Position numbers and translations under genes: made by a program | In this document: in pieces, positions 3,487-16,499 of the stretch | Layout of the letters: every line of letters begins with the position of its first letter | Position numbering within the stretch: position 1 is the first letter of the stretch | Assembly: GCA_040508545.1 (NCBI GenBank) | Contig: JBEVMR010000098.1 | Span: 2,885 to 66,884 of the forward strand | From: Solirubrobacterales bacterium | Lineage (GTDB): Bacteria; Actinomycetota; Thermoleophilia; Solirubrobacterales; 70-9 | Length of the DNA: 64,000 nt | Reading direction: 5' to 3' | Notes under the pieces: generated by a model | Seen by the model: only the letters and a program-made list of their open reading frames with translations | What the model was told of the DNA's origin: nothing | The model's database searches: none

Positions 3487-4149
3487 GTGCAGGAGACAAA
3501 GCCCTCCGGGGGACAGCCGAAGAAACGACCGCGACTGTCGCCCGAGGCGATCACCGAGGCGGCGATCCGGTTGGCCGATGCCGAGGGCCTCGAGGCGGTC
3601 TCGATCAGGCGCGTCGCCGCCGAGCTCGACGCGCGGGCGATGAGCCTCTACGACCATTTCGCCAGCAAGCGCGAGCTGCTCGCCTCGATGGCCGACGAGG
3701 TGGTGGGGGAGATGCTGGTCTCCCAGCCCCTGCCGGAGGCCTGGCGCGAGGGGGTCGCGGTCTCCGCGCGGACGATGTATGCGGCTTACGCCTCACACCC
3801 TTGGGCGATCTTCGCCGCCGCCGAGCGGCTCGGCCCGGGACCCAACGGCCTCAAGCTCGCCAAGCAGATGGCGCGAGCGCTCGCGAATCTCCCGCTCGAG
3901 CATGGCGATGTCTGGCAGGTGCAGGGGATAGTCAACGACTACGTAATCGGCTACTCCTTCCGAACGGTCGGCACCGTGAACCCGGAGGACATGGAAGCGG
4001 CGATCGCGGCCAGCGACATAGTCGAGTTCCCCGAGCTGGCCGCCCTCCCCGACAACCTCCGCAACCGCTCCTCGATAGAGCGCTTCGAACTCGGCCTGCA
4101 GACGGTGCTCGACGGCATCGAGCGGCGCTTTCTCGATCAGCCTGGCTGA
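3487..4149 (+). CDS. TetR/AcrR family transcriptional regulator
   Basis: HTH region SPEAITEAAIRLADAEGLEAVSIRRVAAELDARAMSLYDHFASKRELL. GTG at 3487 chosen as start, because the track ORF from 3142 would overlap the divergent gene. The start is uncertain. Confidence 0.8.
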   Translation: MQETKPSGGQPKKRPRLSPEAITEAAIRLADAEGLEAVSIRRVAAELDARAMSLYDHFASKRELLASMADEVVGEMLVSQPLPEAWREGVAVSARTMYAAYASHPWAIFAAAERLGPGPNGLKLAKQMARALANLPLEHGDVWQVQGIVNDYVIGYSFRTVGTVNPEDMEAAIAASDIVEFPELAALPDNLRNRSSIERFELGLQTVLDGIERRFLDQPG

Positions 4150-4221
4150 GATCCGCGAGGCCATGATCGGGGTAGGTCGCCACTTCTGGCGTGACGTAGC
4201 TGAGATTCCGGGGCGCGTAGG

Positions 4222-5667
4222 ATGAGCGCCACGGTGCCCGAGACCATCCGCGACGCTTCCACGGCCAGCCAGGCCTTCAAGTCCGCACTCGAGGTGGTCG
4301 GCGGTGTGGCGCCGGAGGTGGCCGCCGCGATCCGCAGCGAACTCGAGGACCAGCGGCACGCGCTGAAGCTGATCGCGAGCGAGAACTACAGCTCGCCGGC
4401 CGTCCAGCTGGCGATGGGCCAGTGGATGACCGACAAGTACGCCGAGGGCGCCACGGGCAAGCGCTGGTACGCGGGCTGCGAGAACGTCGACACGGTCGAG
4501 GGCGCCGCCGCGTCGCTGGCTCAGGAGCTGTTCGGGGCTGACCATGCGTACGTGCAGCCGCACAGCGGCGCCGACGCCAACCTCGTCGCCTTCTCGGCGA
4601 TCCTCGCCGAGCGGGTCGAGAAGCCGTACCTCGAAGAGCAGGGCGTGCGGGACTCGCGGCTCCTTTCCGAGGAGCAGTGGGAGGAGCTGCGCCAACGCCT
4701 CGTCAACCAGCGCATGCTCGCGATGGAGCTGACTTCCGGCGGCCACCTGACGCATGGCATGCGGGCGAACCTGTCCGCCAAACTCTTCGAGATCGTCCCC
4801 TACGGGGTGGATCCGGAGTCGGGTCTGCTCGACTACGACCGGGTGCGCGAGCTGGCGCTGGAGACCCGCCCGCTGCTGATTCTCGCGGGCCACAGCTCCT
4901 ACCCGCGCAAGATCGACTTCCGCCGCTTCCGCGAGATCGCTGACGAGGTCGGCGCTGTGTTCATGGTCGACATGGCCCACTTCGCGGGCCTTGTTGCCGG
5001 TGGCGTCTTCGAGGGCGAGTTCGACCCCGTTCCGTACGCGCACCTGGTGACCTCGACGACGCACAAGACGCTGCGCGGCCCGCGCGGTGGTCTCGTGCTG
5101 TGCACGAGCGAGTTCGCAGACGCCGTCGACCGCGGCTGCCCGATGATCCTCGGAGGCCCGCTGTCCCACGTCATGGCGGCGAAGGCCGTCGCGTTCCACG
5201 AAGCGCTTGCACCGGAGTTCCGCGACTACGCGGCGGCGATCGTCGCAAATGCGCGGGCGCTGGCCGAGGCGCTCGTGGCCGGCAGTGAGGTGCTGCAGAC
5301 CGGCGGCACCGAAAACCATCTGCTGCTCGTGGATGTGCGCCAGCATGGCCTCAACGGTCGACAGGCGGAGGCGGCCCTGCGCGAGTGCAACATCGTGCTC
5401 AATCGCAACGTGCTGCCGTACGACCCGAACGGCCCCTGGTTCACCAGCGGCATCCGGCTCGGGACCGCGGCTCTGACCACCCGCGGCTTTGGCGAAGGGG
5501 AGATGGGCCGAATCGCCGAGCTGATCTCCACGGTCCTCGGGGCAGCAGGACCGATCGAGGACGTCCGCGGCAAGCCGGAGCTCCCGCAGACGTTGGTCGA
5601 CGAAGTGCGCGCCACCGTCGAGGAGCTGACGGCGGCGCATCCGCTGTATCCCGGCCTCGTCGTCTGA
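4222..5667 (+). CDS. glyA: Serine hydroxymethyltransferase
   Basis: 481 aa. [32 protein letters not shown] and the PLP-lysine motif [14 protein letters not shown]. Confidence 0.95.
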
Positions 5668-5876
5668 CCCGCGGTGCGGAGCGAGATGGGGGTACACCCG
5701 GCCAGAAGAGTCCTGGAAGGGATGCTCGCGCGAGCCGCTGGCCGGTTTGACTCGCAGGTCGCAGCCTCCAGCATCTGCTGCCAGCTCACCTTCGACGAAT
5801 TGCGTCACATCGCGGGGATGCGGCGGCGGTTGAGAGGTGAAAAACAGAAGCCCCGTTGTGCAGGAGCTTCTGACAG

Positions 5877-5921
5877 TGGAGCTAGGCGGAATCGTAGTGC
5901 CGACCTCCTGGGAGCGATCCA
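5877..5921 (-). repeat. Degenerate direct-repeat copy of the 3' portion of tRNA-Ala(CGC) (distal att-like site of island 1)
   Basis: tggagctaggcggaatcgtagtgccgacctcctgggagcgatcca aligned to 13028-13072 matches at 40 of 45 nt, with two uninterrupted 14-nt runs. Same orientation as the tRNA. Confidence 0.7.
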
Positions 5922-6039
5922 AGTCAGTCGTACAGCGCAGGAGCCAATAAAATCGCTGATTTACAGGGCTTTCTGCAAACACTGAATCCTCCGAAGTATC
6001 TCTGGATAAGCAGGGATATGTGGCGATATGCAGGGAGTC

Positions 6040-6063
6040 GGGCACTTCTGGCGAGAAGTGCCC
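6040..6063 (-). terminator. Stem-loop downstream of the island-1 operon (putative terminator, no U-tract)
   Basis: Perfect 10-bp stem gggcacttct / agaagtgccc with loop ggcg, 52 nt past the stop of ORF 6115..6747. Confidence 0.35.
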
Positions 6064-6114
6064 GAAATCGGGGCAGGGCGGTTGGAACAGTCGCGGAGAA
6101 GCTGGAGGCGTCCG

Positions 6115-6747
6115 TCAGGTCGTCCCGCCGTGCAGAGGCGGAGGCCGCAATGAACTCGTCGCAACGCTACCTGGATGCGTCTCTGCCAGCGGGACTTCCG
6201 GGTCTGCACGCGGCATCGAGTAGCGCGGATGTTCGGGCATGATGACCTGTCCGAACATCATCTCCAGCACGTCCTCGAAGAATCTCGGACGAACTCGTTC
6301 GTGATCAATACGTTCGACAAAGACAAGCAATTGCCGCCGAACCGCATCGAAGATGTCATCTGCCATAACGCTCTGCTGAGTGGCGTCTAACTCTGAGCGG
6401 CGCCAAGACAGGTGTGCGACACGCTGGGAGAATTCTCCCGACAAGCGCTTTAGGGTCCGTCGATCGCTAGTTGAGATTGACCACTCGCCGACAGTGAAGT
6501 TGGAGGCCGTTGCTTCCTTCTGGTTGGGGCGATCGGTCAGGAAGTCGATCAGCTGTCGAGCGTGAATCTGAAATGACTCAATGAGCGCATTGCGAGCCGC
6601 GAGGCCATTCAGCGGAAGATTCGCCACCGCTTGATCATGGTCACCGTTTTGAAGGTGAGTGTGCAGAGAGGCAAACATCTGGATCTCGTAAAGGACGTGC
6701 TCCGATTGCTCGATCGCTTCCTCTCTGGTCCGATCTTTGGGTGTCAT
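6115..6747 (-). CDS. Hypothetical protein, third gene of the island-1 operon
   Basis: 210-aa ATG ORF, same strand as the methyltransferase gene and 50 nt downstream of it. Lower GC. I recognise no family. Confidence 0.6.
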   Translation of the reverse strand: MTPKDRTREEAIEQSEHVLYEIQMFASLHTHLQNGDHDQAVANLPLNGLAARNALIESFQIHARQLIDFLTDRPNQKEATASNFTVGEWSISTSDRRTLKRLSGEFSQRVAHLSWRRSELDATQQSVMADDIFDAVRRQLLVFVERIDHERVRPRFFEDVLEMMFGQVIMPEHPRYSMPRADPEVPLAETHPGSVATSSLRPPPLHGGTT

Positions 6748-6797
6748 GGCGCAATCGTACGGTCGGCCGATCCCGACCCGCGGCGTGACGCTGCTCT

Positions 6798-8069
6798 TCA
6801 GCCCAAGTTGGCCTGCTCGCGGAGCTCCCGGGCCTGCGCACCGGGTCCCTTTCCCTCGCCCGGGTGATCGTCATGTGGACCTGAATGCTCCTCGAGGAAC
6901 TTCTTTGACACGTCCATCACGGGCTCAGGGTCCGGTCGCCCGCTCCGATGTGCGACTGCGAGTGAGAGCGGGTCCTTGAAGACCTCTCCATCCACCGATT
7001 CGAGCACCAGGCGACCGATGCGCTCCGCGAGCGCCGAGGGGACCGCATTTCCGAGCTGCCGGTGGGCGGAAAGGTAAGAGCCCCTGATCTCGACGTTCTT
7101 CGGAAACGTTTGCAGGCGCATCAGCTCATATCGCGAGAGTTTGCGTGAAGACCAGTGGAAAGGCCCGGTCGCAGGGCCAGGCGATGCTGGAAGGGTCCAG
7201 GACGGAAGGTCCTTCGCGAGCTTCAGTAGGAAGCTCCAAAAGCGCGTCCGATACCCGAAGAGCTCCTCGCCTCCTCCTCGGGAGGTGTGCCACAGGTAGT
7301 TCTTGCCCTCGGGGATCGAAGGCAACAGGTCAGCCCACTTGCCCTTCATAGCCAGGTCGTCGAGGTCATCAGGTGTCTCGTCGCCCAGTGCGTCCCAGGC
7401 ATCCCGATGTGGTTGACCGCGATCGGGACCGTGGGTCGGCTCGGCCGCTTCGAGGCGAAGACCTTCTCGAGTGGCACAGAGGAAGAGTCGCTCGCGCTTC
7501 TGGGCGACCCCGAAGTCGACCGCGTTCAGCTTCAGCGAATGGAGCACGTAGCCGGTACCGAGGGCGCCGTTCATCGCTTGAAGGCGCTCGCGGATGAAGC
7601 TGACCACCTCCTCACGCCCGCTCATCGACAGGGACGTGACGTTCTCGATCAAAAGAACGTGGGGTTGGAGCTCCTCGGCGACGTCCATCAGCATGGTCAG
7701 GGTCTCCGCCCTAGGATCCTCGAGCCGAGCCGAGTCGCGATACCACCATCCGGCCTTCGAGAATGGCTGGCAGGGGGGACCTGCGGCGAGGATCCCCACC
7801 GAGCCCTCCTTTAGGGAGAGCTCAGAAAGCAGCTCACTGGGTGCGTAGTCGGCGATGTCACGGAGGCGCGCGAGCGGCCAATCGGGACGATTCGCCTTGA
7901 TCGTGAGGCGCGCATCGACATCCTTCTCGACGCATCCGACGATCTCGAACCCCGCGGCCTCGAGGCCGTAATCGAGCCCGCCGGCACCCGTATAGAGCGA
8001 GAGGACGGTTCGCGGCATCCCGGTCGAGGGTGGGGCAGCGGAAGACGAGGTGGGTATCATGTCGCTCAC
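6798..8069 (-). CDS. DNA (cytosine-5)-methyltransferase
   Basis: 423 aa with ordered C5-MTase motifs: I LYTGAGGLDYG, IV GPPCQPFSKAG, VI LLIENV, VIII QKRERLF, X LGNAVP. Its ATG overlaps the upstream stop (ATGA at 8066-8069). Confidence 0.9.
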   Translation of the reverse strand: MSDMIPTSSSAAPPSTGMPRTVLSLYTGAGGLDYGLEAAGFEIVGCVEKDVDARLTIKANRPDWPLARLRDIADYAPSELLSELSLKEGSVGILAAGPPCQPFSKAGWWYRDSARLEDPRAETLTMLMDVAEELQPHVLLIENVTSLSMSGREEVVSFIRERLQAMNGALGTGYVLHSLKLNAVDFGVAQKRERLFLCATREGLRLEAAEPTHGPDRGQPHRDAWDALGDETPDDLDDLAMKGKWADLLPSIPEGKNYLWHTSRGGGEELFGYRTRFWSFLLKLAKDLPSWTLPASPGPATGPFHWSSRKLSRYELMRLQTFPKNVEIRGSYLSAHRQLGNAVPSALAERIGRLVLESVDGEVFKDPLSLAVAHRSGRPDPEPVMDVSKKFLEEHSGPHDDHPGEGKGPGAQARELREQANLG

Positions 8070-11000
8070 TCGCCCGGCACGATCGGCTCAGCGTCCTCGT
8101 CGGTGATCTCGGCTGCCGCGGCCCTCGACGGCACAAGCACCCGCACCGTCACGCCATCCTCCAGCTGCTCCTCGGCCACGAGTTCATCGCACGTGCTTCG
8201 TAGCGCCTTCCAGAGCATCGCATTGTCGTAGTTCTCAAGCTCCGCCGGTATGTGGTCGAGGAGCGAGGAGGAGACCACGACGATGAGCCGCTCCTCGACG
8301 CGGGAGAAAGCCACGTTTGAACGGTTGAGATCGAGGATGAAGGACTCATATCCCGCGATCGCCGAGGGGTCCGATGCCGTGGCCGAGACGATGATCGCCT
8401 TGCGCTCGCCGCCCTGAAGGCGCTCGACCGTGTCGACGACATCGACGGAGTCCGCCAGCGCGTCGGAAAGGAGCTGGCGCTGCGCCCGATGTGGGGTGAT
8501 GACCGCGATGTCGGAGGACGCCGGGCTGCCCTCCGCCTGGACGACCTTGCCAACGATCTCCACCTCGGTCTGATTCGCCTTCCTCGAGCCACGCTCGTCA
8601 TGGACGACGAGATAGATGCCGCCATCCCCGCGCCAGACGCCCTCCCAAGTGTCAGCGCCGTACTCCTCCGCGGGTGAGGCCTCGCGCTCGACTCCTTGCA
8701 GGTCGATCTGATCGGCTTTGTAGACGCGGCGGATCAGACGGATCACGTCTGGCGGAAGTCGGAAGGAGAGATTGAGCGCGTTCCTTGATATCTGTCGATC
8801 CGTATTCGCTTCGCTCGTGGCGAGACTGGCGATTGCGTCGAAGGCCGAGAGATGAGGCTGATAGATCTCGACCGGGGGCCGGTCCTCCCTCTCCCAGTCG
8901 TGGGCCACGATCGGCGCAAGCTGGCGGTTGTCTCCGGCGAGCATTAGGTACCCCTCGCCCGACACCATCGTCGTGAGGGCGAGGAAGTGGGGGAACACCA
9001 ACATCGATGCCTCGTCAACGATCAGCTCGGCCACCGGGTCGAAGTGCGTTGCCGCCCCATCGATGGTCTTCTGAAGCTTGAGCAGCCCCCGCGTCGTGCC
9101 GGCGAGGATCACGACCCCACAGTCCAGAAACCCGCGCAGCTTCCTGATGATGCCCGAGGTACCGATCCTTTCGCACCCCGCCGGCGGGTCTGCGTCGATG
9201 CGGAGCAGCGAGATTGCGGGCGTCGCGAGTCCCTCCTCGCCGGCCTTCTCCTCAAATTCCTCCCGGAGTTCTGCGATCCGACCGAGCAGGATGTCGACGG
9301 CGGCATGCGTGTTCGCACCGATCGTGATCATGTCTCCCGGAGTTCGGCGCAGGAGGATCCGCGTCAGCACCGAGATAGCGGCGGTCACCGTCTTCCCGGT
9401 TCCAGGCGGACCCTGAAGAAGGGCAGCCCGCGCGTGGAGGCCGTCCATGATCGCCTTGATTTGCGCCTCGGCTAGGGGACGGCCGCGGGACGGACGTAGT
9501 GAGCGGATTACGCGCTCGACCCGCTCTAGGAGCTCCTCGTCGGGGTGGGGCGCCTCGGGCACCTGCGGCGAGATTGGGTCGAGCCAGGCCACGGTCGGGG
9601 CGTCCCCGTGTTCGACGAGGCGTGCCTCCACGGTCCCGGCGACGAAGTCGGATGGGCTCGAGTCCAGGGTGGCGAATTCCTGGTCGGTTAGGAAGTCCAC
9701 CCCGGTTGAGGCCAGCACGTAGCGCGTCGCTTTGCGTCCTCCTCGGGCCTCGATCTCCACCGTGCCGCTCGTCCAGTCGATCTCAGTGACCTGCCCAGTC
9801 ATGCCGGCGCGGGTCAGTTGGCCGAGGGTCTGCCCCCTTTCCGGATCAGGGCCGCGGAGCGTGACCCGCGCCCAGGCGCCCTCGGGCCACGATGCCTGGA
9901 GTGCAGGAAGGTCGGAGTCGAATCCCTCCAAGTCGATCGTCGCGCGAAGCGCGTCTCCGTCGGCCTGCTCAAGGTTCCGGAGGGGCAGGGACGTACCGAG
10001 GGCCACGCGATCGGTCACCGCCGCCAGGTGCTCGCTCAGCCATCGGGTCATGCCGACGTGGTGATCGAGCCGCAGGAAGTCGACCGATGCACGTGCGATG
10101 TCGTTGACGCCGAGGTCGAACCGCGGCAGCTCGGCGAGCGGGATCGCTGGCTTCTGGATTTCGGTATTCCGAGAGCCGACCTGCTCCTCGATCCAGCGAA
10201 GCGCCTCCGCCCGCGCCCCGAGGTAGGCCCTGATCGAGGTCGAGTCGGCCTGGGAGTAGCGGCCGAGCGCCGCCTTTACCTGGTAGGAGTTCTCCTCCCT
10301 CGGATCGGGCAGCGTTCCCCACATCGCCCGCCAGTAGGGCGCCGGAAGGGTGTCGAAGTTGCGTGAACGGATCTCGAAGCGGTGCCGCAGCGCCGCGCCC
10401 TCGGGATCGTCCACCCAGTTGCCGTCTCCGTCGAGCCCGAGCGTGGTCTTGAAGTCGAAGAGGTCCTGCTCGAAGATCCGGTCTAGGTCTCGCTCCTCTC
10501 CGAGCACCCGGCGGCGCCAGTGATAACGATTGCCGAACCAAGTGAGCGACGTCGCCACCACCAGCCCGCGGCTCGTCCAGCCGAGTCCGAAGCGGCGGTT
10601 GATCTCGGTTCCGACGTCGCTGTAGATCATCTGCTCGAGCGACTCACGTGCGCCGAGCAGCTGCCGGAGATGGCCGAGGAGCCGGGTGTCCGCACGGCTG
10701 CAGGCCTCGACCAGCTGGCTCATCTCGTTGGCCGACCAGACGTAGAAGTGCAGACGACAGTCCTCTTCGGGCCGGACGATCTCGGCGATCGCCTCGACCA
10801 GGTCCGTGAGGAACCCCTGAATTAGGACCTTCTCGGCGCCCGTGTCCTCGTCGGGATTTCCCCGCCACGCCGAGGGCATCACGCTGCAGATGGTCCTCGA
10901 CTCGCCCGGATCGAGCTCCCTCTCGGCGATCACCTCTCGCCGGCGCGCTCCGTCGACCTCGGTCCATTCCCGCTTTCGCTCTTGCAGAGTCGGGTTCGGG

Positions 11001-12244
11001 CGCCATCGCCCCTCGACCTCTTGGAAAGGGGTGTGCAGTTCGTGCTCGGAGCGCGTCACGTGGGCGGTCAGGGCGCCGACTCGATTCTCGGCCACGTCAT
11101 AGTCGACCGTTAGATAGATCCGGACCAGCTGCTGTCCGTCGATCTCATGTGCCGGTAGCTGACTTGAGCCCGACCCGCGAAGGGTTGCGACCGGGAAGTC
11201 GTCGGGGTCCTCCTCGCCTCGCGGTAGAGTCGCGCGCCGCGCCTGCGCCCGTTCCTTCAGGCGGCGCAGGCTTTCCGAGAAGCCCGGTCGCTGCCTGAGT
11301 TCGCGGGCCTCAGTTGACTCCAGATCGAGGCTCGCCAGGGTGTCGATGTCGGACACGCCGTGCTCGCGGAGGGCCGAGGCGACCGAGGGCTCGAGGCTGA
11401 GCAACTCAAGTCGTCTTTCCCTCCCAGACTCCGAAAGGCAATCGATGCTGAACACGCATCCGTCGCACTTGCCGCCGAGCTGGAACTGGAGGTCGGGAAG
11501 AGCGGTGGAGGTGATTCGGGAGAGGGGTCCTTTGGGTGCGAGCAGGCGCCTCAGATCTGCTTCCTCGCGGTCGACGTCGCTCAGCTCCTCTAGCTCTTGG
11601 ACGACCTGCGGGCGGCCGGTGTCCTCCTCGATCCGCGCCACCACGGCCCTCACCGATTGCGGTTCGATCGCCCTGCCCGCAACGGAGAGCGGCGCGCTCT
11701 GAAGTAGGTCGCGGAGGAGCATCATGTAGGCGACGACCTGGATGCGGTGATAGGTCCGATCGCGGCGGCTGGCCTTTCCCTCAATGATCCTCAGGGTCGG
11801 CTGATCCCCTTGCCATTCGAGGACGACGAAGTCGATGGCGCCGCGTACCTCGAAAGCCCCGATCCGTCCTTCTACTCCCACCTCGCGGCCGAAGGCGAGC
11901 GAGCCCTCGGGCAGTTCGGCGAGCCCCGCCGCGAACTCCGCCCACTCGGAACGCCGTGGCCGCACCGTGCCGTCTTCGTCTGGTTCTGGTGGGAGCGGCG
12001 TTAATTCGCTGTAGCCGGCCTCGGTCAGCTGCGCGGCCCACGCCTGCTCTCGGTCGGCGCCTGCCTGCGCCAGGATCGGATCGAGGACATTGAACAGTCG
12101 CTCGTAAAACGGAAGCCGCCTTGCCTCCTGACGTTTGTTATAGGAGAGCTTGAAGCGCCGTTCACAGCTCTGGAAGCGAACGAACTCGCCGATGTCCGAT
12201 ACGGAGACTCGGAGTGTTTCCATCGGCGTCTCCCCGTTCGTCAC
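8066..12244 (-). CDS. Cas4/RecB-like 4-Cys PD-(D/E)xK nuclease fused to an SF1 (Dna2/Upf1-like) helicase
   Basis: 1392 aa. N-terminus has C27, D138 (AIDFVV), E155-x-K157 (IIEGK), Q169xxxY173 and C260-x2-C263-x5-C269. C-terminus has Walker A LLQGPPGTGKT (nt about 9389-9412), VDEASM, LAGDNRQLAPI, VITPHRAQ, VDTVERLQGGER and AFSRVEERLIVV. Confidence 0.9.
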   Translation of the reverse strand: MTNGETPMETLRVSVSDIGEFVRFQSCERRFKLSYNKRQEARRLPFYERLFNVLDPILAQAGADREQAWAAQLTEAGYSELTPLPPEPDEDGTVRPRRSEWAEFAAGLAELPEGSLAFGREVGVEGRIGAFEVRGAIDFVVLEWQGDQPTLRIIEGKASRRDRTYHRIQVVAYMMLLRDLLQSAPLSVAGRAIEPQSVRAVVARIEEDTGRPQVVQELEELSDVDREEADLRRLLAPKGPLSRITSTALPDLQFQLGGKCDGCVFSIDCLSESGRERRLELLSLEPSVASALREHGVSDIDTLASLDLESTEARELRQRPGFSESLRRLKERAQARRATLPRGEEDPDDFPVATLRGSGSSQLPAHEIDGQQLVRIYLTVDYDVAENRVGALTAHVTRSEHELHTPFQEVEGRWRPNPTLQERKREWTEVDGARRREVIAERELDPGESRTICSVMPSAWRGNPDEDTGAEKVLIQGFLTDLVEAIAEIVRPEEDCRLHFYVWSANEMSQLVEACSRADTRLLGHLRQLLGARESLEQMIYSDVGTEINRRFGLGWTSRGLVVATSLTWFGNRYHWRRRVLGEERDLDRIFEQDLFDFKTTLGLDGDGNWVDDPEGAALRHRFEIRSRNFDTLPAPYWRAMWGTLPDPREENSYQVKAALGRYSQADSTSIRAYLGARAEALRWIEEQVGSRNTEIQKPAIPLAELPRFDLGVNDIARASVDFLRLDHHVGMTRWLSEHLAAVTDRVALGTSLPLRNLEQADGDALRATIDLEGFDSDLPALQASWPEGAWARVTLRGPDPERGQTLGQLTRAGMTGQVTEIDWTSGTVEIEARGGRKATRYVLASTGVDFLTDQEFATLDSSPSDFVAGTVEARLVEHGDAPTVAWLDPISPQVPEAPHPDEELLERVERVIRSLRPSRGRPLAEAQIKAIMDGLHARAALLQGPPGTGKTVTAAISVLTRILLRRTPGDMITIGANTHAAVDILLGRIAELREEFEEKAGEEGLATPAISLLRIDADPPAGCERIGTSGIIRKLRGFLDCGVVILAGTTRGLLKLQKTIDGAATHFDPVAELIVDEASMLVFPHFLALTTMVSGEGYLMLAGDNRQLAPIVAHDWEREDRPPVEIYQPHLSAFDAIASLATSEANTDRQISRNALNLSFRLPPDVIRLIRRVYKADQIDLQGVEREASPAEEYGADTWEGVWRGDGGIYLVVHDERGSRKANQTEVEIVGKVVQAEGSPASSDIAVITPHRAQRQLLSDALADSVDVVDTVERLQGGERKAIIVSATASDPSAIAGYESFILDLNRSNVAFSRVEERLIVVVSSSLLDHIPAELENYDNAMLWKALRSTCDELVAEEQLEDGVTVRVLVPSRAAAAEITDEDAEPIVPGE

Positions 12245-12387
12245 GCGCCGAGCCTATCGCCGTTCTCAAAGAACACCATGCGGAACGCCGTGTCGAAAAG
12301 CTAGAGACGCTCAATGTGTCGGCTAACGGGCATACCCGTAGGATTTCCACGTATCGTTGGCTCCCGGTGGTCGAATACGATCGATAT

Positions 12388-13089
12388 ATGAGCCAGGCGA
12401 AGGGAGGCATTGCTGAACAAGTGAGCCTGCTGCGTGAGCGACTCACCGCGACGCGGTCCCCGTCCGGTTTCCATCCTTATTGGCCGAACTATCCGGTTAT
12501 GCCTGACGAGCCACTGTGGGCAATCTCTGTACGTGAATCGGACGGAGCATGGAGCGGCTGGTACAGGACGGCGACTCGCGATCTCGATGAAGCCATTGCT
12601 GAGGCACACCGCTTCTCCGGTGTCTCGGCTGAGGCTGACACCAGTGTGCTTCCGACGATTCCCCGATCGGAGTCCTACCGAAGCGCCAATCGCATGCTGA
12701 CGGCCCTGCTCCTGGCGGTTCCGCCCGACCATTCTGAAGCCGTCGCGATGCTTGAGCAGATCCGGCTCACTCTGGTGGCGGTTGCGGAGGCCGAGGAGGA
12801 AGGTCTCTACTTCGGCCCCCTCAGGATCGACCTGCCCATCGCCCTAGAGGTTGGCGCTTTGCTTAGCTCTGCAGTCGGCCAGATGCAAGCGGGAATCCAG
12901 GGTAATCGCCGCAATCCCTTCGCATCGCCGCGATTTCGGGCACTCGTGCCCGAAAGGAGCGCAAATTCAGCGCCGGTTGGAAACGGCTCCAGAAATCAAG
13001 CTGCCCACGTGCAGGGACATCCTCCGATGGAGCTAGGCGGATTCGAACCGCCGACCTCCTGGGTGCGATCCAGGCGCTCTGCCAGCTGA
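12388..13089 (+). CDS. Hypothetical protein; the ORF runs across the att junction into the tRNA-Ala gene
   Basis: ATG at 12388, in frame with track ORF 12214..13089. Divergent from the nuclease-helicase gene. The last ~20 codons are the antisense of the tRNA (MELGGFEPPTSW...), so the C-terminus is created by the junction. It may be a truncated gene. Confidence 0.4.
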   Translation: MSQAKGGIAEQVSLLRERLTATRSPSGFHPYWPNYPVMPDEPLWAISVRESDGAWSGWYRTATRDLDEAIAEAHRFSGVSAEADTSVLPTIPRSESYRSANRMLTALLLAVPPDHSEAVAMLEQIRLTLVAVAEAEEEGLYFGPLRIDLPIALEVGALLSSAVGQMQAGIQGNRRNPFASPRFRALVPERSANSAPVGNGSRNQAAHVQGHPPMELGGFEPPTSWVRSRRSAS

Positions 13090-13100
13090 GCTATAGCCCC
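13028..13100 (-). tRNA. tRNA-Ala (anticodon CGC)
   Basis: Reverse complement GGGGCTATAGCTCAGCTGGCAGAGCGCCTGGATCGCACCCAGGAGGTCGGCGGTTCGAATCCGCCTAGCTCCA folds as a 73-nt cloverleaf with the G3:U70 Ala identity pair and anticodon loop ATCGCAC. Confidence 0.9.
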
Positions 13101-13184
13101 TCGTGCGGGGTTGGGAGGATCGTCCCAAACGCCTCGCAAGGGCAAGGATAACCGCATAGTCTTTAGGTTTCCCCAGAGATCCGC

Positions 13185-14096
13185 ATGGGCATTCTCGACG
13201 ACGCGATCAAAGAGCACCTGGAGCTGAAGCGCCAGCACGGCGCCGATGACTCTGAGTTGAAACAGCTCGAGGACGAGGCGTTTGGCGCTGCCGAGCGGCC
13301 TGGCAGCGAGGGATCGGCGCCCGATCCGCTCGCCGAGGCCCCGACCGAATTCATGACTCAGCCCGACGTGGACGGGGCGCCGGAGGCTGAGCCAGCTGCC
13401 GACGCCGCGCCGCAGCCAGCCCCGCGCGAGGCCGAGGACGCGCCTGGCCGCCCCGCGCCTCGCTCGGAGATCGCCGACCTGCAGGAGGCTCCGCCCTCCG
13501 AGTACGACGAGCCCGCCGAGGAGGAGGCGCCGGCGATGGAACACGAGACGGTGCCCGAGCCGGAGGCGCCCGCCGAGCCAATCGCCTCGACCGGCCCGAC
13601 CACCGAGGAGCGCGAGGCGATCGCCGAGCAGCCGACCGAGATGTTCGACATCGAGGAGGAGCTCTCGATCTCCAAGGCGGAGGCCCCCTCCGAGGAGGAG
13701 CTGGTCGAAGAGGGGATCGAAGAGCCGCGCCTGGCCCCGGTCGATCCGCTCGCCGGCCTCGACGAGGAGGCCAAGGACGAGGCGCCGGACGAGGAGTACG
13801 AAGAGGACGAAGACTTTTGGGACGAGAAGCGGCTCTCCGACGAGCTCGACCAGGCGCTCGAGGCGCCGAGCGAAGTCGAGGACAAGGAAACGATCTTCGA
13901 TCAGCCCCCGGTCACCGAGCCTGAGCCCGCATCCGCACCTGAGCCCGATGACGCGCCCGCGCCCGCGGAGCCTCGCCCCGCCGCGCCTGAGGAGGACGTG
14001 CTCGAGGAGACGCCGGACTTCCTCGAGGAGGCGCCCGAGGACGACGAGCTCTGGTTCGAGCAGAAACCGCCCAAGGATTTCGATTTCGACGACTGA
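13185..14096 (+). CDS. Highly acidic Glu/Pro/Ala-rich protein, function unknown
   Basis: 303 aa. Ordered-looking N-terminus MGILDDAIKEHLELKRQHG and C-terminus DDELWFEQKPPKDFDFDD flank a low-complexity acidic core. The opposite-strand ORFs (12996..14147, 13358..13885) are Arg/Ser-rich mirror artefacts. Confidence 0.6.
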   Translation: MGILDDAIKEHLELKRQHGADDSELKQLEDEAFGAAERPGSEGSAPDPLAEAPTEFMTQPDVDGAPEAEPAADAAPQPAPREAEDAPGRPAPRSEIADLQEAPPSEYDEPAEEEAPAMEHETVPEPEAPAEPIASTGPTTEEREAIAEQPTEMFDIEEELSISKAEAPSEEELVEEGIEEPRLAPVDPLAGLDEEAKDEAPDEEYEEDEDFWDEKRLSDELDQALEAPSEVEDKETIFDQPPVTEPEPASAPEPDDAPAPAEPRPAAPEEDVLEETPDFLEEAPEDDELWFEQKPPKDFDFDD

Positions 14097-14128
14097 ATTC
14101 GAGCAATCGGTGCGTATACATTGCGCCG

Positions 14129-15112
14129 ATGCCCAGCGACGCTGCAATCGAAGCCAGCGGCCTCTGTAAGTCCTACGGAAAGGTCCGCGCCCTCGAAGGG
14201 GTGGATCTGCGCGCCCCCACCGGAACCGTGCTGGGCCTGCTGGGGCCCAACGGCGCCGGTAAGACGACCGCGGTCCGCATCCTCACCACGCTGCTGCAGG
14301 CCGACGGCGGCAGCGCCAGGGTCGCGGGCCTCGACGTTGCCCGCGACGCCGCGGAGCTGCGGGCGAAGATCGGCCTCGCCGGCCAGTACGCGGCGGTCGA
14401 CGAAAACTTGACCGGGGCCGAGAACCTGGAGATGGTCGGCCGCCTCTACCACCTGCCGAAGGGCGAGCCGCGCGCTCGCGCCGCCCAGCTGCTGGAGCGC
14501 TTCGGCCTCAGCGAGGCCGCCGACCGCCTCGTCCGCACCTACTCGGGCGGGATGCGCCGCCGCCTCGACCTCGCCGCCGCGCTCGTCGCCCGCCCGCCCG
14601 TCCTCTTCCTCGACGAGCCGACGACCGGCCTCGACCCGCGCAGCCGCATCGACCTCTGGGAGATGATCGAAGACCGGGTGGCGAAAGGGACCACGGTCCT
14701 GCTCACCACGCAGTACCTGGACGAGGCCGACCGGCTCGCCGATCGCATCGCCGTCATCGACCGCGGCCGGATGCTCGCCGAGGGCACCTCGGACGAGCTC
14801 AAGGACCGCTTCGGCGGCGAGCGCCTCGACCTTACCCTGGAGAACCGCGCCCAGGCCGACGCCGCGACCACCGCGCTCGAGCCGATCGTCTCCGGGCCGC
14901 CCAGCGACCTGCCGGGCGGCGCCCTCTGTTACCCGGTCGAGCAGCGCCAGGGCACGATCGCCGCCGCGGTGCGCAGGCTCGACGAGGCCGGGATCGCGAT
15001 CGATGACGTGGCGATGCACCGCCCGACCCTCGACGACGTCTTCCTCGGCCTGACCGGGCGCGCCGCCAGCGAGGCCGAGGAAAACGGCGAGCCCGCCAGC
15101 GAGGTCAGGTGA
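14129..15112 (+). CDS. ABC transporter ATP-binding protein (DrrA/ABC-2 exporter type)
   Basis: Walker A GPNGAGKTT, signature YSGGMRRRL, Walker B VLFLDEPTTGLD. Confidence 0.9.
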   Translation: MPSDAAIEASGLCKSYGKVRALEGVDLRAPTGTVLGLLGPNGAGKTTAVRILTTLLQADGGSARVAGLDVARDAAELRAKIGLAGQYAAVDENLTGAENLEMVGRLYHLPKGEPRARAAQLLERFGLSEAADRLVRTYSGGMRRRLDLAAALVARPPVLFLDEPTTGLDPRSRIDLWEMIEDRVAKGTTVLLTTQYLDEADRLADRIAVIDRGRMLAEGTSDELKDRFGGERLDLTLENRAQADAATTALEPIVSGPPSDLPGGALCYPVEQRQGTIAAAVRRLDEAGIAIDDVAMHRPTLDDVFLGLTGRAASEAEENGEPASEVR

Positions 15113-15987: not shown

Positions 15988-16488
15988 ATGGCTGCGCTGA
16001 AGCAAAAGGGGGATTTGGCCGAGCTCAAGGTGGCCGCTGACCTGGCGAGTCGCGGCTGCTGCATCTCGATCCCCTACGGCGAGGACTGCGACTACGACCT
16101 GATTGCCGACAGGCAGGGTGTTCTCCATCGCGTGCAGGTCAAATACACGGAGTCAGACGGAGAGGTCATCGCGGTTCGCTGCATGTCGCATTCCCTGACC
16201 AACGGGAAGATTCGGCAGACCAAGCATTACACGGCTGAGCTCGTCGATTGGATTGCCGTCTATGACCGAACTTCGGAGTGCTGTTACTACGTCCCGGCGA
16301 GCGAGCTGGGATCCGGGAGAAGCTACCTGCACCTTCGCCTCGTTCCAGCCCGCAACGGTCAGCGCGTAGGCATCCGCAACGCGTGTGACTACGCAGACCC
16401 CGATCTTGCGCGAGATCCGCGAGGAGTGGAGCCAGCGGGACTCGAACCCGCGGCCTCCGCCGTGCAAGGGCGGCGCTCTTCCAGCTGA
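15988..16488 (+). CDS. PD-(D/E)xK endonuclease-like protein (resembles the PDDEXK_5 / group I intron-type endonuclease family)
   Basis: 166 aa. KGDLAELKVAADLASRG...PYGEDCDYDLIAD...RVQVKY matches the D...(D/E)xK layout. Family assignment is from memory. Lower GC. The 3' end overlaps tRNA-Ala(UGC) by 62 nt. Confidence 0.6.
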   Translation: MAALKQKGDLAELKVAADLASRGCCISIPYGEDCDYDLIADRQGVLHRVQVKYTESDGEVIAVRCMSHSLTNGKIRQTKHYTAELVDWIAVYDRTSECCYYVPASELGSGRSYLHLRLVPARNGQRVGIRNACDYADPDLARDPRGVEPAGLEPAASAVQGRRSSS

Positions 16489-16499
16489 GCTATGGCCCC
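16427..16499 (-). tRNA. tRNA-Ala (anticodon UGC)
   Basis: Reverse complement GGGGCCATAGCTCAGCTGGAAGAGCGCCGCCCTTGCACGGCGGAGGCCGCGGGTTCGAGTCCCGCTGGCTCCA. 73 nt, G3:U70 pair, anticodon loop CTTGCAC. Confidence 0.9.

What the first reader, a model, noticed from the sequence alone, without database searches (positions are those of the whole stretch)
6115..12244. Candidate methylation-linked defence operon: FeS nuclease-SF1 helicase giant protein + C5 cytosine methyltransferase + 210-aa unknown protein
Three co-directional genes fill the island.
- A 1392-aa Cas4-like nuclease / Dna2-Upf1-like SF1 helicase fusion.
- A complete C5 DNA methyltransferase. Its ATG overlaps the upstream stop (ATGA, 8066-8069), which implies translational coupling and fixed stoichiometry.
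- A 210-aa orphan ORF 50 nt downstream, followed by a strong hairpin.

A modification enzyme hard-wired to an ATP-driven nuclease is the logic of restriction-modification and of systems such as BREX or DISARM. From memory, classical ATP-dependent R-M types (I, III, ISP) use SF2 motors, not an SF1 Dna2-like helicase with a 4-Cys nuclease. Single-gene nuclease-helicase defences such as Nhi are not described with a coupled methyltransferase.

My working hypothesis is a self/non-self system in which m5C marks host DNA and the helicase-nuclease processively degrades unmarked DNA. This hypothesis is inference.
Basis: inference. Interest (0 to 1): 0.85.

Follow-up and report, generated by a model that had tools for sequence, protein, structure and literature searches.

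The report
Mobile Dna2-like nuclease-helicase plus cytosine methyltransferase
A small mobile island at a tRNA gene carries an uncharacterised 1392-aa nuclease-helicase next to a cytosine DNA methyltransferase; this pair recurs across distant bacteria and archaea and is probably a new restriction-modification-like phage defence, but the third gene is a passenger and the mechanism is untested.

Summary
Two details need correction: the junction overlap is GTGA, not ATGA, and the 210-aa ORF has 29 homologues.

The 1392-aa protein has a Cas4/Dna2-type four-Cys PD-(D/E)XK nuclease, a roughly 400-aa family-private domain with no PDB fold match, a beta-barrel and a Upf1/Dna2-type SF1B helicase. No PADLOC, NCBIfam or Pfam model covers it end to end, and I found no paper naming it.

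Across about 50 related loci, a C5-methyltransferase lies next to it in 23 of 33 loci with adequate flanks. Outside one solitary cyanobacterial clade and a distant archaeal outgroup the figure is 29 of 36. All orientations occur, so translational coupling is not conserved. Nucleotide synteny with close relatives covers exactly the two genes.

The 210-aa gene is cargo. It became adjacent through a deletion that removed a Vsr segment present in a relative. The module sits in a 7.1-kb tRNA-Ala(CGC) island.

Vsr, HhH-GPD glycosylases and, in five loci, SacI-family restriction enzymes also co-occur. Some partner methyltransferases therefore already have a conventional nuclease.

Verdict: a real, uncharacterised two-gene module, most likely restriction-modification-like. 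That methylation protects the host remains inference.

The parts
8066..12244 (-). 1392-aa nuclease-helicase, core gene 1 of the module. The true start may be GTG at 12244 or the ATG at residue 8.
   Evidence: ORF. Pfam PDDEXK_1 plus AAA_11/AAA_12. More than 200 full-length homologues of 1365-1450 aa. Nuclease, Walker A/B and helicase motifs are invariant.
11420..12244 (-). Nuclease domain, residues about 1-275. Cas4/Exo5/Dna2-type PD-(D/E)XK with D138, E155, K157 and four Cys (C27, C260, C263, C269).
   Evidence: Pfam PF12705 and PADLOC Cas4. TIGR03491, partial. Foldseek matches Exo5 7lw9 (prob 0.98), Cas4 SSO0001 4ic1 (0.95) and Dna2 5eax. Residue invariance.
9995..11212 (-). Family-private middle domain, residues 345-750. 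Function unknown. Residues 511-600 are among the most conserved parts of the protein.
   Evidence: No Pfam hit. AF2 model pLDDT 78, pTM 0.83. No PDB fold match, best E 0.31. Found only in this architecture among 1.84 billion representatives. Conservation profile.
9650..9994 (-). Beta-barrel, residues about 751-865, between the middle domain and the helicase. A barrel occupies the same position in Dna2.
   Evidence: Strands E752-862 in the AF2 model. Only generic beta-barrel matches in Foldseek. The comparison with the Dna2 barrel is my inference.
8225..9532 (-). SF1B (Upf1/Dna2-type) helicase core, residues about 905-1340. Walker A is GPPGTGKT and Walker B is VDEAS.
   Evidence: Pfam AAA_11/AAA_12/AAA_19/AAA_30. 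PDB profile hits to Upf1 (1e-21), IGHMBP2 and Dna2 (4e-18). Partial PADLOC MkoA and DpdJ hits over the helicase only.
6798..8069 (-). C5 cytosine DNA methyltransferase, core gene 2. 423 aa from GTG 8069, or 420 aa from ATG 8060.
   Evidence: PF00145 7e-42 over profile positions 2-320 of 324. TIGR00675 dcm. Nearest solved relatives are M.HaeIII and M.HhaI. Orthologues next to the big gene at 30 of the 51 dereplicated family loci, the window included.
6115..6747 (-). 210-aa conserved hypothetical protein. Island cargo, not a conserved member of the module.
   Evidence: No Pfam, PADLOC, NCBIfam or PHROG hit. 29 homologues. They occur without helicase or MTase in L090 and L092. GC3 is 0.63 against 0.76-0.82 for the pair. 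L089 has a 1.1-kb segment between the MTase and this gene.
6039..6064 (-). Perfect stem (12 bp as folded, 11 by eye) with a 4-nt loop after the 210-aa gene. Terminator-like but has no U-tract.
   Evidence: Sequence. Fold dG -21.3 kcal/mol, z -5.08.
13028..13100 (-). tRNA-Ala(CGC). This is the integration site and proximal border of the island.
   Evidence: ARAGORN. An identical tRNA lies just upstream of the module in relative L081.
5858..5921 (-). Degenerate direct repeat of the tRNA-Ala 3' half. att-like distal border of the 7.15-kb island.
   Evidence: 64 nt, 80% identical to 13009-13072, spacing 7151. Equivalent repeats occur in L081 (22167-22215) and L089 (9283-9325).
12245..13027 (.). 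Unassigned leader between the tRNA and the big gene. No convincing gene. Partly conserved at nucleotide level with L089.
   Evidence: ORFs on both strands have no Pfam or PHROG hit and no clear GC3 signal. Nucleotide matches at 12396-12517 and 12859-12942 to L089.

Best explanation
This is a mobile, two-gene restriction-modification-like defence module carried as cargo of a tRNA-Ala(CGC) genomic island.

Gene 1 is an ATP-driven 5'-3' (SF1B) motor fused to a Cas4/Dna2-type iron-sulfur nuclease. It also carries a family-private domain of about 400 aa. Gene 2 is an active C5 cytosine methyltransferase.

Proposed mechanism (inferred, by analogy with Type III enzymes):
1. The methyltransferase marks host DNA and supplies the sequence specificity. 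The nuclease-helicase has no variable recognition domain of its own, while its partner methyltransferases are very diverse.
2. On DNA lacking the mark, the motor-nuclease is licensed, either directly by the methyltransferase or through its private domain.
3. It loads on DNA, translocates and degrades it processively.

If so, the nuclease-helicase alone would be inert or differently controlled, which would explain why intact solitary copies are tolerated.

The 210-aa gene and the hairpin are not part of the mechanism.

Shown: domain make-up, conserved catalytic residues, the gene linkage, block-wise mobility and the defence-island context.

Inferred: that methylation protects, that unmethylated DNA is the target, and that the two proteins interact.
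For: - Architecture and intact active sites.
- C5-MTase adjacent in 23 of 33 well-flanked loci, and in 29 of 36 full-length members outside the cyanobacterial and Bathyarchaeia clades. My estimate of the chance expectation for a random gene is well below 1%, because genomes carry only a few such methyltransferases.
- The MTase is the primary partner. Only about 13 of the 29 MTase-linked loci also have Vsr or HhH-GPD.
- Nucleotide synteny with L081 and L082 spans exactly the two genes, 12301 to 6813, at 85%.
- Patchy, cross-domain distribution, including haloarchaeal megaplasmids at 42-43% identity.
- Island features: tRNA-Ala with an att-like repeat in the window, L081 and L089; GC3 below host genes.
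- Neighbours include integrases, transposases, toxin-antitoxin genes and many PADLOC defence proteins.
- The big protein has no hypervariable segment of recognition-domain size. Partner MTases range from below 20% to 75% identity and from 333 to 668 aa.
- Conceptual precedent: Dcm(+Vsr) cassettes combined with helicase-nuclease or ATPase genes in predicted defence systems (PMC5704561, PMC2292703).
Against: - There is no experimental evidence, and nothing shows sensitivity to methylation.
- Five loci carry a SacI-family restriction enzyme next to the partner MTase: L003, L095, L096, L119 and the Haladaptatus plasmid L135. One carries XhoI and two carry HNH_2 genes. In those loci the MTase already has a conventional nuclease.
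- Intact solitary copies exist: seven syntenic cyanobacterial loci, plus L014, L005, L136, L110 and L098.
- Gene order and orientation are not conserved. Co-divergence of the two proteins is only modest, Spearman about 0.32, so partners are swapped. That is less expected for an obligate complex.
- The family is absent from the phage collection and rare on plasmids. This is neutral.
Confidence: 0.5

Rival explanations
1. The nuclease-helicase is an accessory end-processing enzyme for m5C restriction-modification cassettes and does not itself read methylation. It joins Dcm(+Vsr)(+REase) modules. It resects or degrades DNA that another nuclease has already cut, whether a SacI-, XhoI- or HNH-type enzyme or an unrecognised restriction enzyme. 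This is comparable to RecBCD or AddAB acting after restriction, or to the 'ancillary' role proposed for UvrD-Cas4 fusions.
For: - Conventional restriction enzymes sit beside the partner MTase on at least four separate branches of the tree.
- The Dna2-like architecture is that of an end- or flap-processing enzyme.
- There is no recognition domain.
- Solitary copies are tolerated.
- Hudaiberdiev et al. reached this reading for the analogous UvrD-Cas4 fusion (PMC5704561).
Against: - Most MTase-linked loci, including the window and its close relatives, show no recognisable restriction enzyme. The conserved block is only the two genes.
- The 210-aa ORF cannot be the missing restriction enzyme, because its homologues occur without any MTase.
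- Many Type II enzymes escape profile detection, so this argument is not decisive.
Confidence: 0.2
2. The nuclease-helicase is a repair helper for m5C deamination. After Vsr nicks 5' of a T:G mismatch, or after a Mig-type HhH-GPD glycosylase acts, the 5'-3' helicase displaces the damaged strand and the Dna2/Cas4-type nuclease cuts the flap. The gene travels with methyltransferases to offset their mutagenic cost.
For: - Vsr occurs at 11 loci and HhH-GPD at 5.
- In L110 and L131 the glycosylase gene is 17 and 2 nt upstream of the big gene with no MTase in the available flank. In L098, Vsr is adjacent without a C5-MTase.
- Close relatives L082, L081 and L089 have Vsr or a Vsr remnant directly after the MTase.
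- Solitary chromosomal copies sit in conserved synteny in cyanobacteria.
- Dna2's known function is flap processing (established knowledge).
Against: - The MTase is the dominant partner, not Vsr or the glycosylase. About 16 of 29 MTase-linked loci have neither. The window has no Vsr anywhere in its 64 kb.
- Vsr is a routine companion of Dcm-type methyltransferases, so its presence needs no special explanation (PMC5704561).
- The patchy, horizontally transferred, defence-island distribution is untypical of repair genes.
- Whether these HhH-GPD proteins are T:G-specific was not tested.
Confidence: 0.15
3. The nuclease-helicase is a self-sufficient single-protein defence analogous to Nhi. It senses phage replication intermediates or phage proteins. 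The methyltransferase adjacency reflects co-travel in defence islands, or protection against a different nuclease.
For: - The protein is intact and conserved when solitary.
- Nhi shows that a nuclease plus SF1B helicase in one protein can defend without a methyltransferase (10.1101/776245).
- The neighbourhoods are rich in defence genes.
Against: - 81% adjacency to one enzyme class, within 0-2 kb and on many independent branches, is far more than island co-localisation would give. No other neighbour family comes close.
- The conserved nucleotide block is exactly the pair.
Confidence: 0.1

Closest known systems
Eukaryotic and archaeal Dna2 nuclease-helicase (PDB 5eax, 5ean)
   Same: The domain order is the same: an iron-sulfur (four-Cys) PD-(D/E)XK nuclease, then a beta-barrel, then an SF1B helicase. 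Dna2 is the best whole-chain fold match for residues 1-923, and the helicase profile matches it at 4e-18.
   Different: The fold match is weak (E 5e-3, TM 0.14). This protein has an extra private domain of about 400 aa between the nuclease and the barrel. It is encoded next to a methyltransferase on mobile islands. Dna2 is a housekeeping replication and repair enzyme.
UvrD-Cas4 fusion proteins linked to Dcm-Vsr or Type III R-M loci (Hudaiberdiev et al. 2017, PMC5704561)
   Same: A Cas4-family nuclease fused to an SF1 helicase. It is found either alone or next to Dcm and Vsr, and is predicted to be a defence component.
   Different: That family has a UvrD-type SF1A (3'-5') helicase. This one is an Upf1/Dna2-type SF1B helicase (AAA_11/AAA_12, with no UvrD Pfam hit) and has the nuclease at the N-terminus. 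Neither family has been tested experimentally, as far as I could find.
Type III restriction-modification (Res/Mod)
   Same: The logic is the same: a helicase-nuclease polypeptide without its own recognition domain, paired with a methyltransferase that could supply specificity.
   Different: Res is an SF2 helicase with a C-terminal nuclease, and Mod is an N6-adenine or N4-cytosine enzyme (established knowledge). Here the motor is SF1B, the nuclease is an N-terminal Cas4 type, and the methyltransferase is C5. Gene order is not fixed.
Nhi (nuclease-helicase immunity; SERP2475; 10.1101/776245)
   Same: A single polypeptide with an N-terminal PD-(D/E)XK nuclease and an SF1B-like helicase. It is horizontally spread and found in defence neighbourhoods.
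   Different: Nhi is defined by a DUF2075 (PF09848) helicase core and an HsdR-like nuclease, and it works without a methyltransferase. No PF09848 or PADLOC Nhi hit was found here. This protein is larger and carries the private domain.
Methyltransferase-containing multi-gene defences: DISARM class 2 and Druantia type II
   Same: A C5 methyltransferase is combined with a large helicase and a nuclease. The window's MTase scores well against the DruM and DrmMII models.
   Different: Those hits reflect generic C5-MTase similarity. The big protein does not match DrmA, DrmB, DrmC or DruE, and the other genes of those systems are absent from the island.

Membership tests
Cas4/Dna2/AddB-type iron-sulfur PD-(D/E)XK nucleases (PF12705) | PD-(D/E)XK catalytic D...E-x-K motif | tested here: met
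   PF12705 1.2e-9 above its cutoff. D138, E155 and K157 are invariant in 31 sequences. Fold matches Exo5 and Cas4.
Cas4/Dna2/AddB-type iron-sulfur PD-(D/E)XK nucleases (PF12705) | Four cysteines (one N-terminal, plus C-x2-C-x5-C) that bind a 4Fe-4S cluster | tested here: met
   C27 is nearly invariant. C260, C263 and C269 are invariant. Actual cluster binding cannot be tested here.
SF1B Upf1/Dna2-like helicases | AAA_11 plus AAA_12 core with Walker A, Walker B and the downstream motifs | tested here: met
   Both Pfam families score above their cutoffs. Upf1 1e-21 and Dna2 4e-18. GPPGTGKT and DEAS are invariant. The 5'-3' polarity is inferred from family membership.
Dna2 orthologue | Overall fold and sequence similarity across nuclease, barrel and helicase, without extra domains | tested here: not met
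   The whole-chain Foldseek match is weak (E 5e-3, TM 0.14). A private 400-aa domain is inserted. Sequence similarity is confined to the helicase.
Nhi | DUF2075 (PF09848) helicase core, or a match to a PADLOC Nhi model | tested here: not met
   No PF09848 hit at E 0.01 or better. No Nhi model among the PADLOC hits. Definition taken from 10.1101/776245.
Mokosh (MkoA/MkoB or MkoC) | Full-length match to MkoA or MkoC, plus a PLD nuclease | tested here: not met
   MkoA and MkoC hits cover only the helicase C-terminal part, residues 1046-1341. No PLD domain is present in the protein or the island.
Type III R-M | Res is an SF2 helicase (ResIII) with a C-terminal nuclease. Mod is an amino-methyltransferase. 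| tested here: not met
   No ResIII or Helicase_C hit. The helicase is SF1B and the MTase is C5.
Type I R-M | HsdR (SF2), HsdM and HsdS | tested here: not met
   No HsdR, HsdM or HsdS matches among the PADLOC or NCBIfam hits, and no specificity gene in the island.
DISARM class 2 / Druantia type II | DrmA/B/C or DruE/F/G accompanying the C5 MTase | tested here: not met
   Only the MTase matches, through the DruM and DrmMII models. None of the other components is in the island.
Classical Type II m5C R-M with Vsr | A C5 MTase with an adjacent small sequence-specific restriction enzyme, often with Vsr | tested here: inconclusive
   The MTase is present. No recognisable restriction enzyme and no Vsr were found in the window. 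Relatives have Vsr (L082), and other loci have SacI or XhoI enzymes. Unrecognisable restriction enzymes cannot be excluded, although the 210-aa ORF is unlikely to be one.
UvrD-Cas4 fusion family (PMC5704561) | UvrD-type SF1A helicase fused to a Cas4-like nuclease | tested here: not met
   No UvrD-helicase or UvrD_C Pfam hit. The helicase is of the AAA_11/AAA_12 type.
tRNA-integrated genomic island | A tRNA gene at one border, a direct repeat of its 3' part at the other, and an integrase | tested here: inconclusive
   The tRNA-Ala and an 80%-identical 64-nt repeat are present. Relatives use the same site. Composition is foreign. No integrase is present in the window's island, so it is probably a decayed or trans-mobilised element.

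The most novel reading that the evidence does not exclude
This is a previously unrecognised class of ATP-dependent restriction-modification system. In it, a C5 cytosine methyltransferase acts as the specificity and self-marking subunit for an SF1B Dna2/Cas4-type motor-nuclease. The motor-nuclease's family-private 400-aa domain, which has no known fold relative, couples methylation status or methyltransferase binding to nuclease licensing. Solitary cyanobacterial copies would then be domesticated versions that work with conserved orphan methyltransferases.
Probability: 0.3. Interest if true: 0.8.

Novelty: new variant of a known kind. Interest (0 to 1): 0.6.

Why it matters
If the pair is a working defence, it adds a motor type to the ATP-dependent restriction enzymes. 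The described Type I, III and ISP enzymes use SF2 motors; this one would use an SF1B, Dna2-like motor with an iron-sulfur nuclease.

It would also give a function to a family now annotated only as 'AAA domain-containing protein'. That family spans Actinomycetota, Proteobacteria, Myxococcota, Bacteroidota, Cyanobacteria, Planctomycetota and haloarchaeal megaplasmids.

The family-private, highly conserved middle domain with no structural relative is a concrete target for learning how such an enzyme is controlled.

The mix of MTase-linked, restriction-enzyme-linked, Vsr- or glycosylase-linked and solitary copies makes the family a natural experiment. It can show how nucleases are recruited to, and released from, methylation control.

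The practical cost of testing is low: two genes, about 5.5 kb.

Tried and rejected
1. **The trio as one system: rejected.** The 210-aa family occurs without helicase or MTase. It is missing from all other family loci except L089. Its GC3 differs from the pair. A 1.1-kb segment separates it from the MTase in L089.
2. **The 210-aa ORF as the missing Type II restriction enzyme: rejected.** The same reasons apply.
3. **The middle domain as an RNase H-like or DEDD exonuclease.** This was my guess from the strand-helix pattern and the partial TIGR03491 hit. It is not supported. Foldseek found no significant PDB match, and the TIGR03491 match ends at residue 315.
4. **A named defence system: none found.** PADLOC, NCBIfam and Pfam give only partial helicase-domain hits: MkoA, DpdJ, PLuB_AAA at 74 bits against a cutoff of 999, and PDC-S68 over 40 residues.
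5. **Literature: nothing for this family.** Five searches found only analogous themes.
6. **An alternative DNA methyltransferase at loci without a C5-MTase.** None appeared among families with two or more members in 85 neighbours. Direct checks found one Eco57I-type N6-MTase, in L098. Families with a single member are hidden in that census, so a few may have been missed.
7. **The first genome-contig scan was diluted.** It used generic P-loop patterns and returned mostly unrelated helicases. I repeated the scan on metagenome contigs with a middle-domain query.
8. **A gene in 12245-13027: unresolved.** No Pfam or PHROG hit and no clear coding signal.
9. **Target site of the MTase: not determined.** Counts of candidate palindromes were not informative and were not pursued.

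Full report
**1. Observation**

The minus strand carries three consecutive ORFs at exactly the stated coordinates: 8066-12244 (1392 aa), 6798-8069 (423 aa) and 6115-6747 (210 aa).

- Pfam places a PD-(D/E)XK nuclease (PF12705) at residues 23-267 of the large protein. It places an AAA_11/AAA_12 SF1 helicase at residues 925-1325.
- A family profile matches Upf1 (1e-21), IGHMBP2 and Dna2 (4e-18) among solved structures.
- The second protein is a complete C5 methyltransferase: PF00145 at 7e-42 and TIGR00675. All the canonical motifs are visible in the translation. Its nearest solved relatives are M.HaeIII and M.HhaI.
So are E155, C260, C263 and C269. C27 is nearly invariant. This is the Cas4/Dna2/AddB iron-sulfur nuclease signature.
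- The 50-nt spacer and the hairpin after the small ORF are real. The hairpin at 6039-6064 has dG -21.3 kcal/mol and z -5.1.

Two details are wrong. First, the 4-nt overlap reads GTGA, not ATGA. An in-frame ATG at 8060, after an 8-nt gap, matches the spacing seen in relatives. Second, the small ORF is not an orphan: it has 29 unannotated homologues.

**2. Setting**

The genes lie in a 7.15-kb island between glyA (plus strand, 4222-5667) and an ABC transporter.

- The island is bounded by tRNA-Ala(CGC) at 13028-13100 and a 64-nt, 80%-identical copy of the tRNA 3' half at 5858-5921.
- The 90%-identical relative L081 has the identical tRNA directly upstream of its module, with the repeat 13 kb away. 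L089 also carries the repeat.
- GC3 is 0.82 for the big gene, 0.76 for the MTase and 0.63 for the small ORF. The flanking host genes are at 0.90-0.94.
- No integrase is present in the window's island.

**3. Which genes belong together**

The large protein belongs to a full-length family of more than 200 proteins of 1365-1450 aa. All are annotated 'AAA domain-containing' or 'hypothetical'. The family is scattered across Actinomycetota, Proteobacteria, Myxococcota, Bacteroidota, Cyanobacteria, Acidobacteriota, Planctomycetota and Bathyarchaeia. Two copies sit on haloarchaeal megaplasmids, and none was found in the phage collection.

I gathered about 50 dereplicated family loci and clustered all neighbouring ORFs.

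- By far the most recurrent neighbour is a C5 methyltransferase, at 30 of the 51 dereplicated loci (the window included).
- It is present in 23 of 33 loci with at least 1.5 kb on both flanks.
- An NJ tree shows where the solitary copies lie. Seven form one cyanobacterial clade with conserved synteny next to dtd, and two form the distant Bathyarchaeia outgroup.
- Elsewhere, 29 of 36 members have the methyltransferase.
- The orientation varies: 12 tandem downstream, 10 convergent, 4 upstream co-directional and 3 divergent. Co-divergence of the two proteins is only modest (Spearman about 0.32).
- Nucleotide synteny between the window and L081/L082 spans exactly 12301 to 6813, which is the two genes and nothing else.

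The 210-aa gene is not part of the module.

- Its homologues sit in unrelated contexts.
- It accompanies the pair only in L089. There, a 1.1-kb segment with a Vsr-like remnant and a 161-aa ORF lies between it and the methyltransferase.
- L082 has Vsr in that position.
- So the window's tight trio is the product of a deletion.

**4. Other recurrent neighbours**

| Neighbour | Loci |
|---|---|
| Vsr | 11 |
| HhH-GPD glycosylase | 5 |
| SacI-family restriction enzyme | 4, plus the Haladaptatus plasmid |
| XhoI restriction enzyme | 1 |
| HNH_2 | 2 |

- Resolvases, transposases, integrases and toxin-antitoxin genes are also present.
- PADLOC recognises many neighbours as defence proteins: REase_II, BrxC, DruF, DrmD/DrmMI, HmaA, GajB, AriA, MADS components and Cas12k/TnsB.
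- Loci without a C5-MTase show no other recurrent DNA methyltransferase. One has an Eco57I-type enzyme.

**5. The protein**

- An AlphaFold model of residues 1-923 is confident (pLDDT 82, pTM 0.81).
- Its N-terminal domain matches Exo5, Cas4 SSO0001 and Dna2.
- A beta-barrel at about residues 752-862 precedes the helicase, as one does in Dna2.
- Residues 345-750 form a separately confident model (pLDDT 78, pTM 0.83). It has no significant PDB match; the best E-value is 0.31.
- An exhaustive HMMER scan of 1.84 billion representatives finds this domain only in proteins of the same architecture or in fragments: 182 clusters in all.
- Conservation is even along the chain. Residues 511-600 are as conserved as the helicase motifs, and no segment is variable enough or large enough to be a target-recognition domain.

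**6. Interpretation**

The gene linkage, block-wise mobility, patchy cross-domain distribution and defence-island context favour a restriction-modification-like defence.

The nuclease-helicase has no recognition domain, and its partner methyltransferases are diverse. The most economical mechanism is therefore Type III-like. The methyltransferase would mark self DNA and provide specificity. The SF1B motor-nuclease would be licensed on unmarked DNA, perhaps through its private domain. I put this at about 0.5, and every mechanistic step is inference.

Three rivals remain:

- **Accessory end-processing enzyme of m5C restriction-modification cassettes (0.2).** The conventional restriction enzymes present in several loci support this. 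So does the ancillary role proposed for UvrD-Cas4 fusions (PMC5704561).
- **m5C-deamination repair helper acting after Vsr or a glycosylase (0.15).** Glycosylase-big and Vsr-big pairs without a methyltransferase support this. Against it, the methyltransferase is the dominant partner.
- **Self-sufficient Nhi-like defence (0.1).** The 81% adjacency to a single enzyme class weakens this.

**7. Comparison with known systems**

- The protein works like Dna2 but is not an orthologue: the fold match is weak and it carries an inserted private domain.
- It resembles Nhi in concept but lacks Nhi's defining DUF2075 core.
- Type I, Type III, DISARM, Druantia and Mokosh each fail a defining feature.
- The closest published idea is the Dcm-Vsr association of UvrD-Cas4 fusions (PMC5704561) and of MORC-type ATPases (PMC2292703). 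Both involve different protein families.
- I found no paper, PADLOC model or NCBIfam model for this family. REBASE and DefenseFinder could not be consulted.

**8. Verdict**

It is a real, conserved, mobile two-gene module, not a trio.
- It is a new variant of the restriction-modification-like kind, with an unusual SF1B iron-sulfur motor-nuclease and a domain of unknown fold.
- Methylation-dependent self/non-self discrimination is plausible but unproven.
- The restriction-enzyme-linked and solitary relatives are real complications.
- Interest 0.6.

Noticed in passing
window 5858-5921 and 13009-13100; L081 9014-9086 and 22167-22215; L089 9283-9325: The module sits in a tRNA-Ala(CGC)-bounded island. 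Two related genomes use the same integration site, with different island sizes (7.1 kb against about 13 kb) and different cargo. The window's island has no integrase.
   Followed up: yes
window 12934-12990 and 6038-6094: A similar motif (TTCCAACCG ... TTTCGGGCAC ... GTGCCCGA, forming a hairpin) occurs just inside both ends of the island. The alignment is weak and its meaning is unclear. It could be duplicated terminators or island-end repeats.
   Followed up: partly
window 5845-5872 (minus strand): A 10-bp hairpin followed by TTTTT (dG -16.5 kcal/mol, z -4.0) sits directly after the tRNA remnant. It mirrors the sequence downstream of the intact tRNA. It is probably the displaced original tRNA terminator.
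   Followed up: partly
window 13001-14500: This stretch has strong AT skew (+0.25) and long ORFs on both strands (12996-14147 minus, 13185-14096 plus, 13901-15019 minus). None has a Pfam hit. The true gene content is unresolved.
   Followed up: no
window 16426-16499: A second tRNA-Ala (anticodon TGC) lies on the minus strand, 3.3 kb from the first.
   Followed up: no
window 3793-6045 (minus) against 4222-5667 (plus): The 750-aa minus-strand ORF is a shadow of glyA. The plus-strand ORF is serine hydroxymethyltransferase (4e-121). This shows how misleading long ORFs are at this GC content.
   Followed up: yes
L085, L086, L103, L104, L108 (Microcoleus-type cyanobacteria): Solitary family members sit in conserved synteny directly downstream of dtd (D-Tyr-tRNA deacylase). 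This looks like vertical inheritance of a domesticated copy without an adjacent methyltransferase.
   Followed up: partly
L098 1085-13131: The order is Vsr (divergent), an intact nuclease-helicase, an SNF2 helicase and a 1354-aa Eco57I/MmeI-type N6 methyltransferase. The sister locus L083 has the usual C5-MTase instead, so this looks like partner replacement.
   Followed up: partly
L110 1325-6161 and L131 5965-10897: An HhH-GPD glycosylase gene ends 17 and 2 nt before the nuclease-helicase, with no methyltransferase in the available flank. The L131 copy shows many stops or frameshifts in my translation, so it may be a pseudogene or an assembly error. L010 is also frameshifted.
   Followed up: partly
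L136 (Halorubrum plasmid NZ_CP098416.1) 11291-15976: A solitary family member lies convergent with a 1561-aa protein annotated as an HNH endonuclease. L135 (Haladaptatus plasmid) has a SacI-family restriction enzyme, dcm and the family member, flanked by two integrase genes.
   Followed up: no
one MTase-linked locus in alignment A7, probably L126 1600-6648 (not verified): A neighbour matches the Druantia DruF model with E = 0, and another matches BrxC with E = 0. Family members can therefore sit beside components of other methyltransferase-containing defence systems.
   Followed up: no
L081 9307-9941, L082 2-400, L089 7838-9086: Close relatives carry toxin-antitoxin pairs immediately next to the module: PIN with a small antitoxin upstream, and ParE/RHH downstream. 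The window's island lacks them.
   Followed up: no
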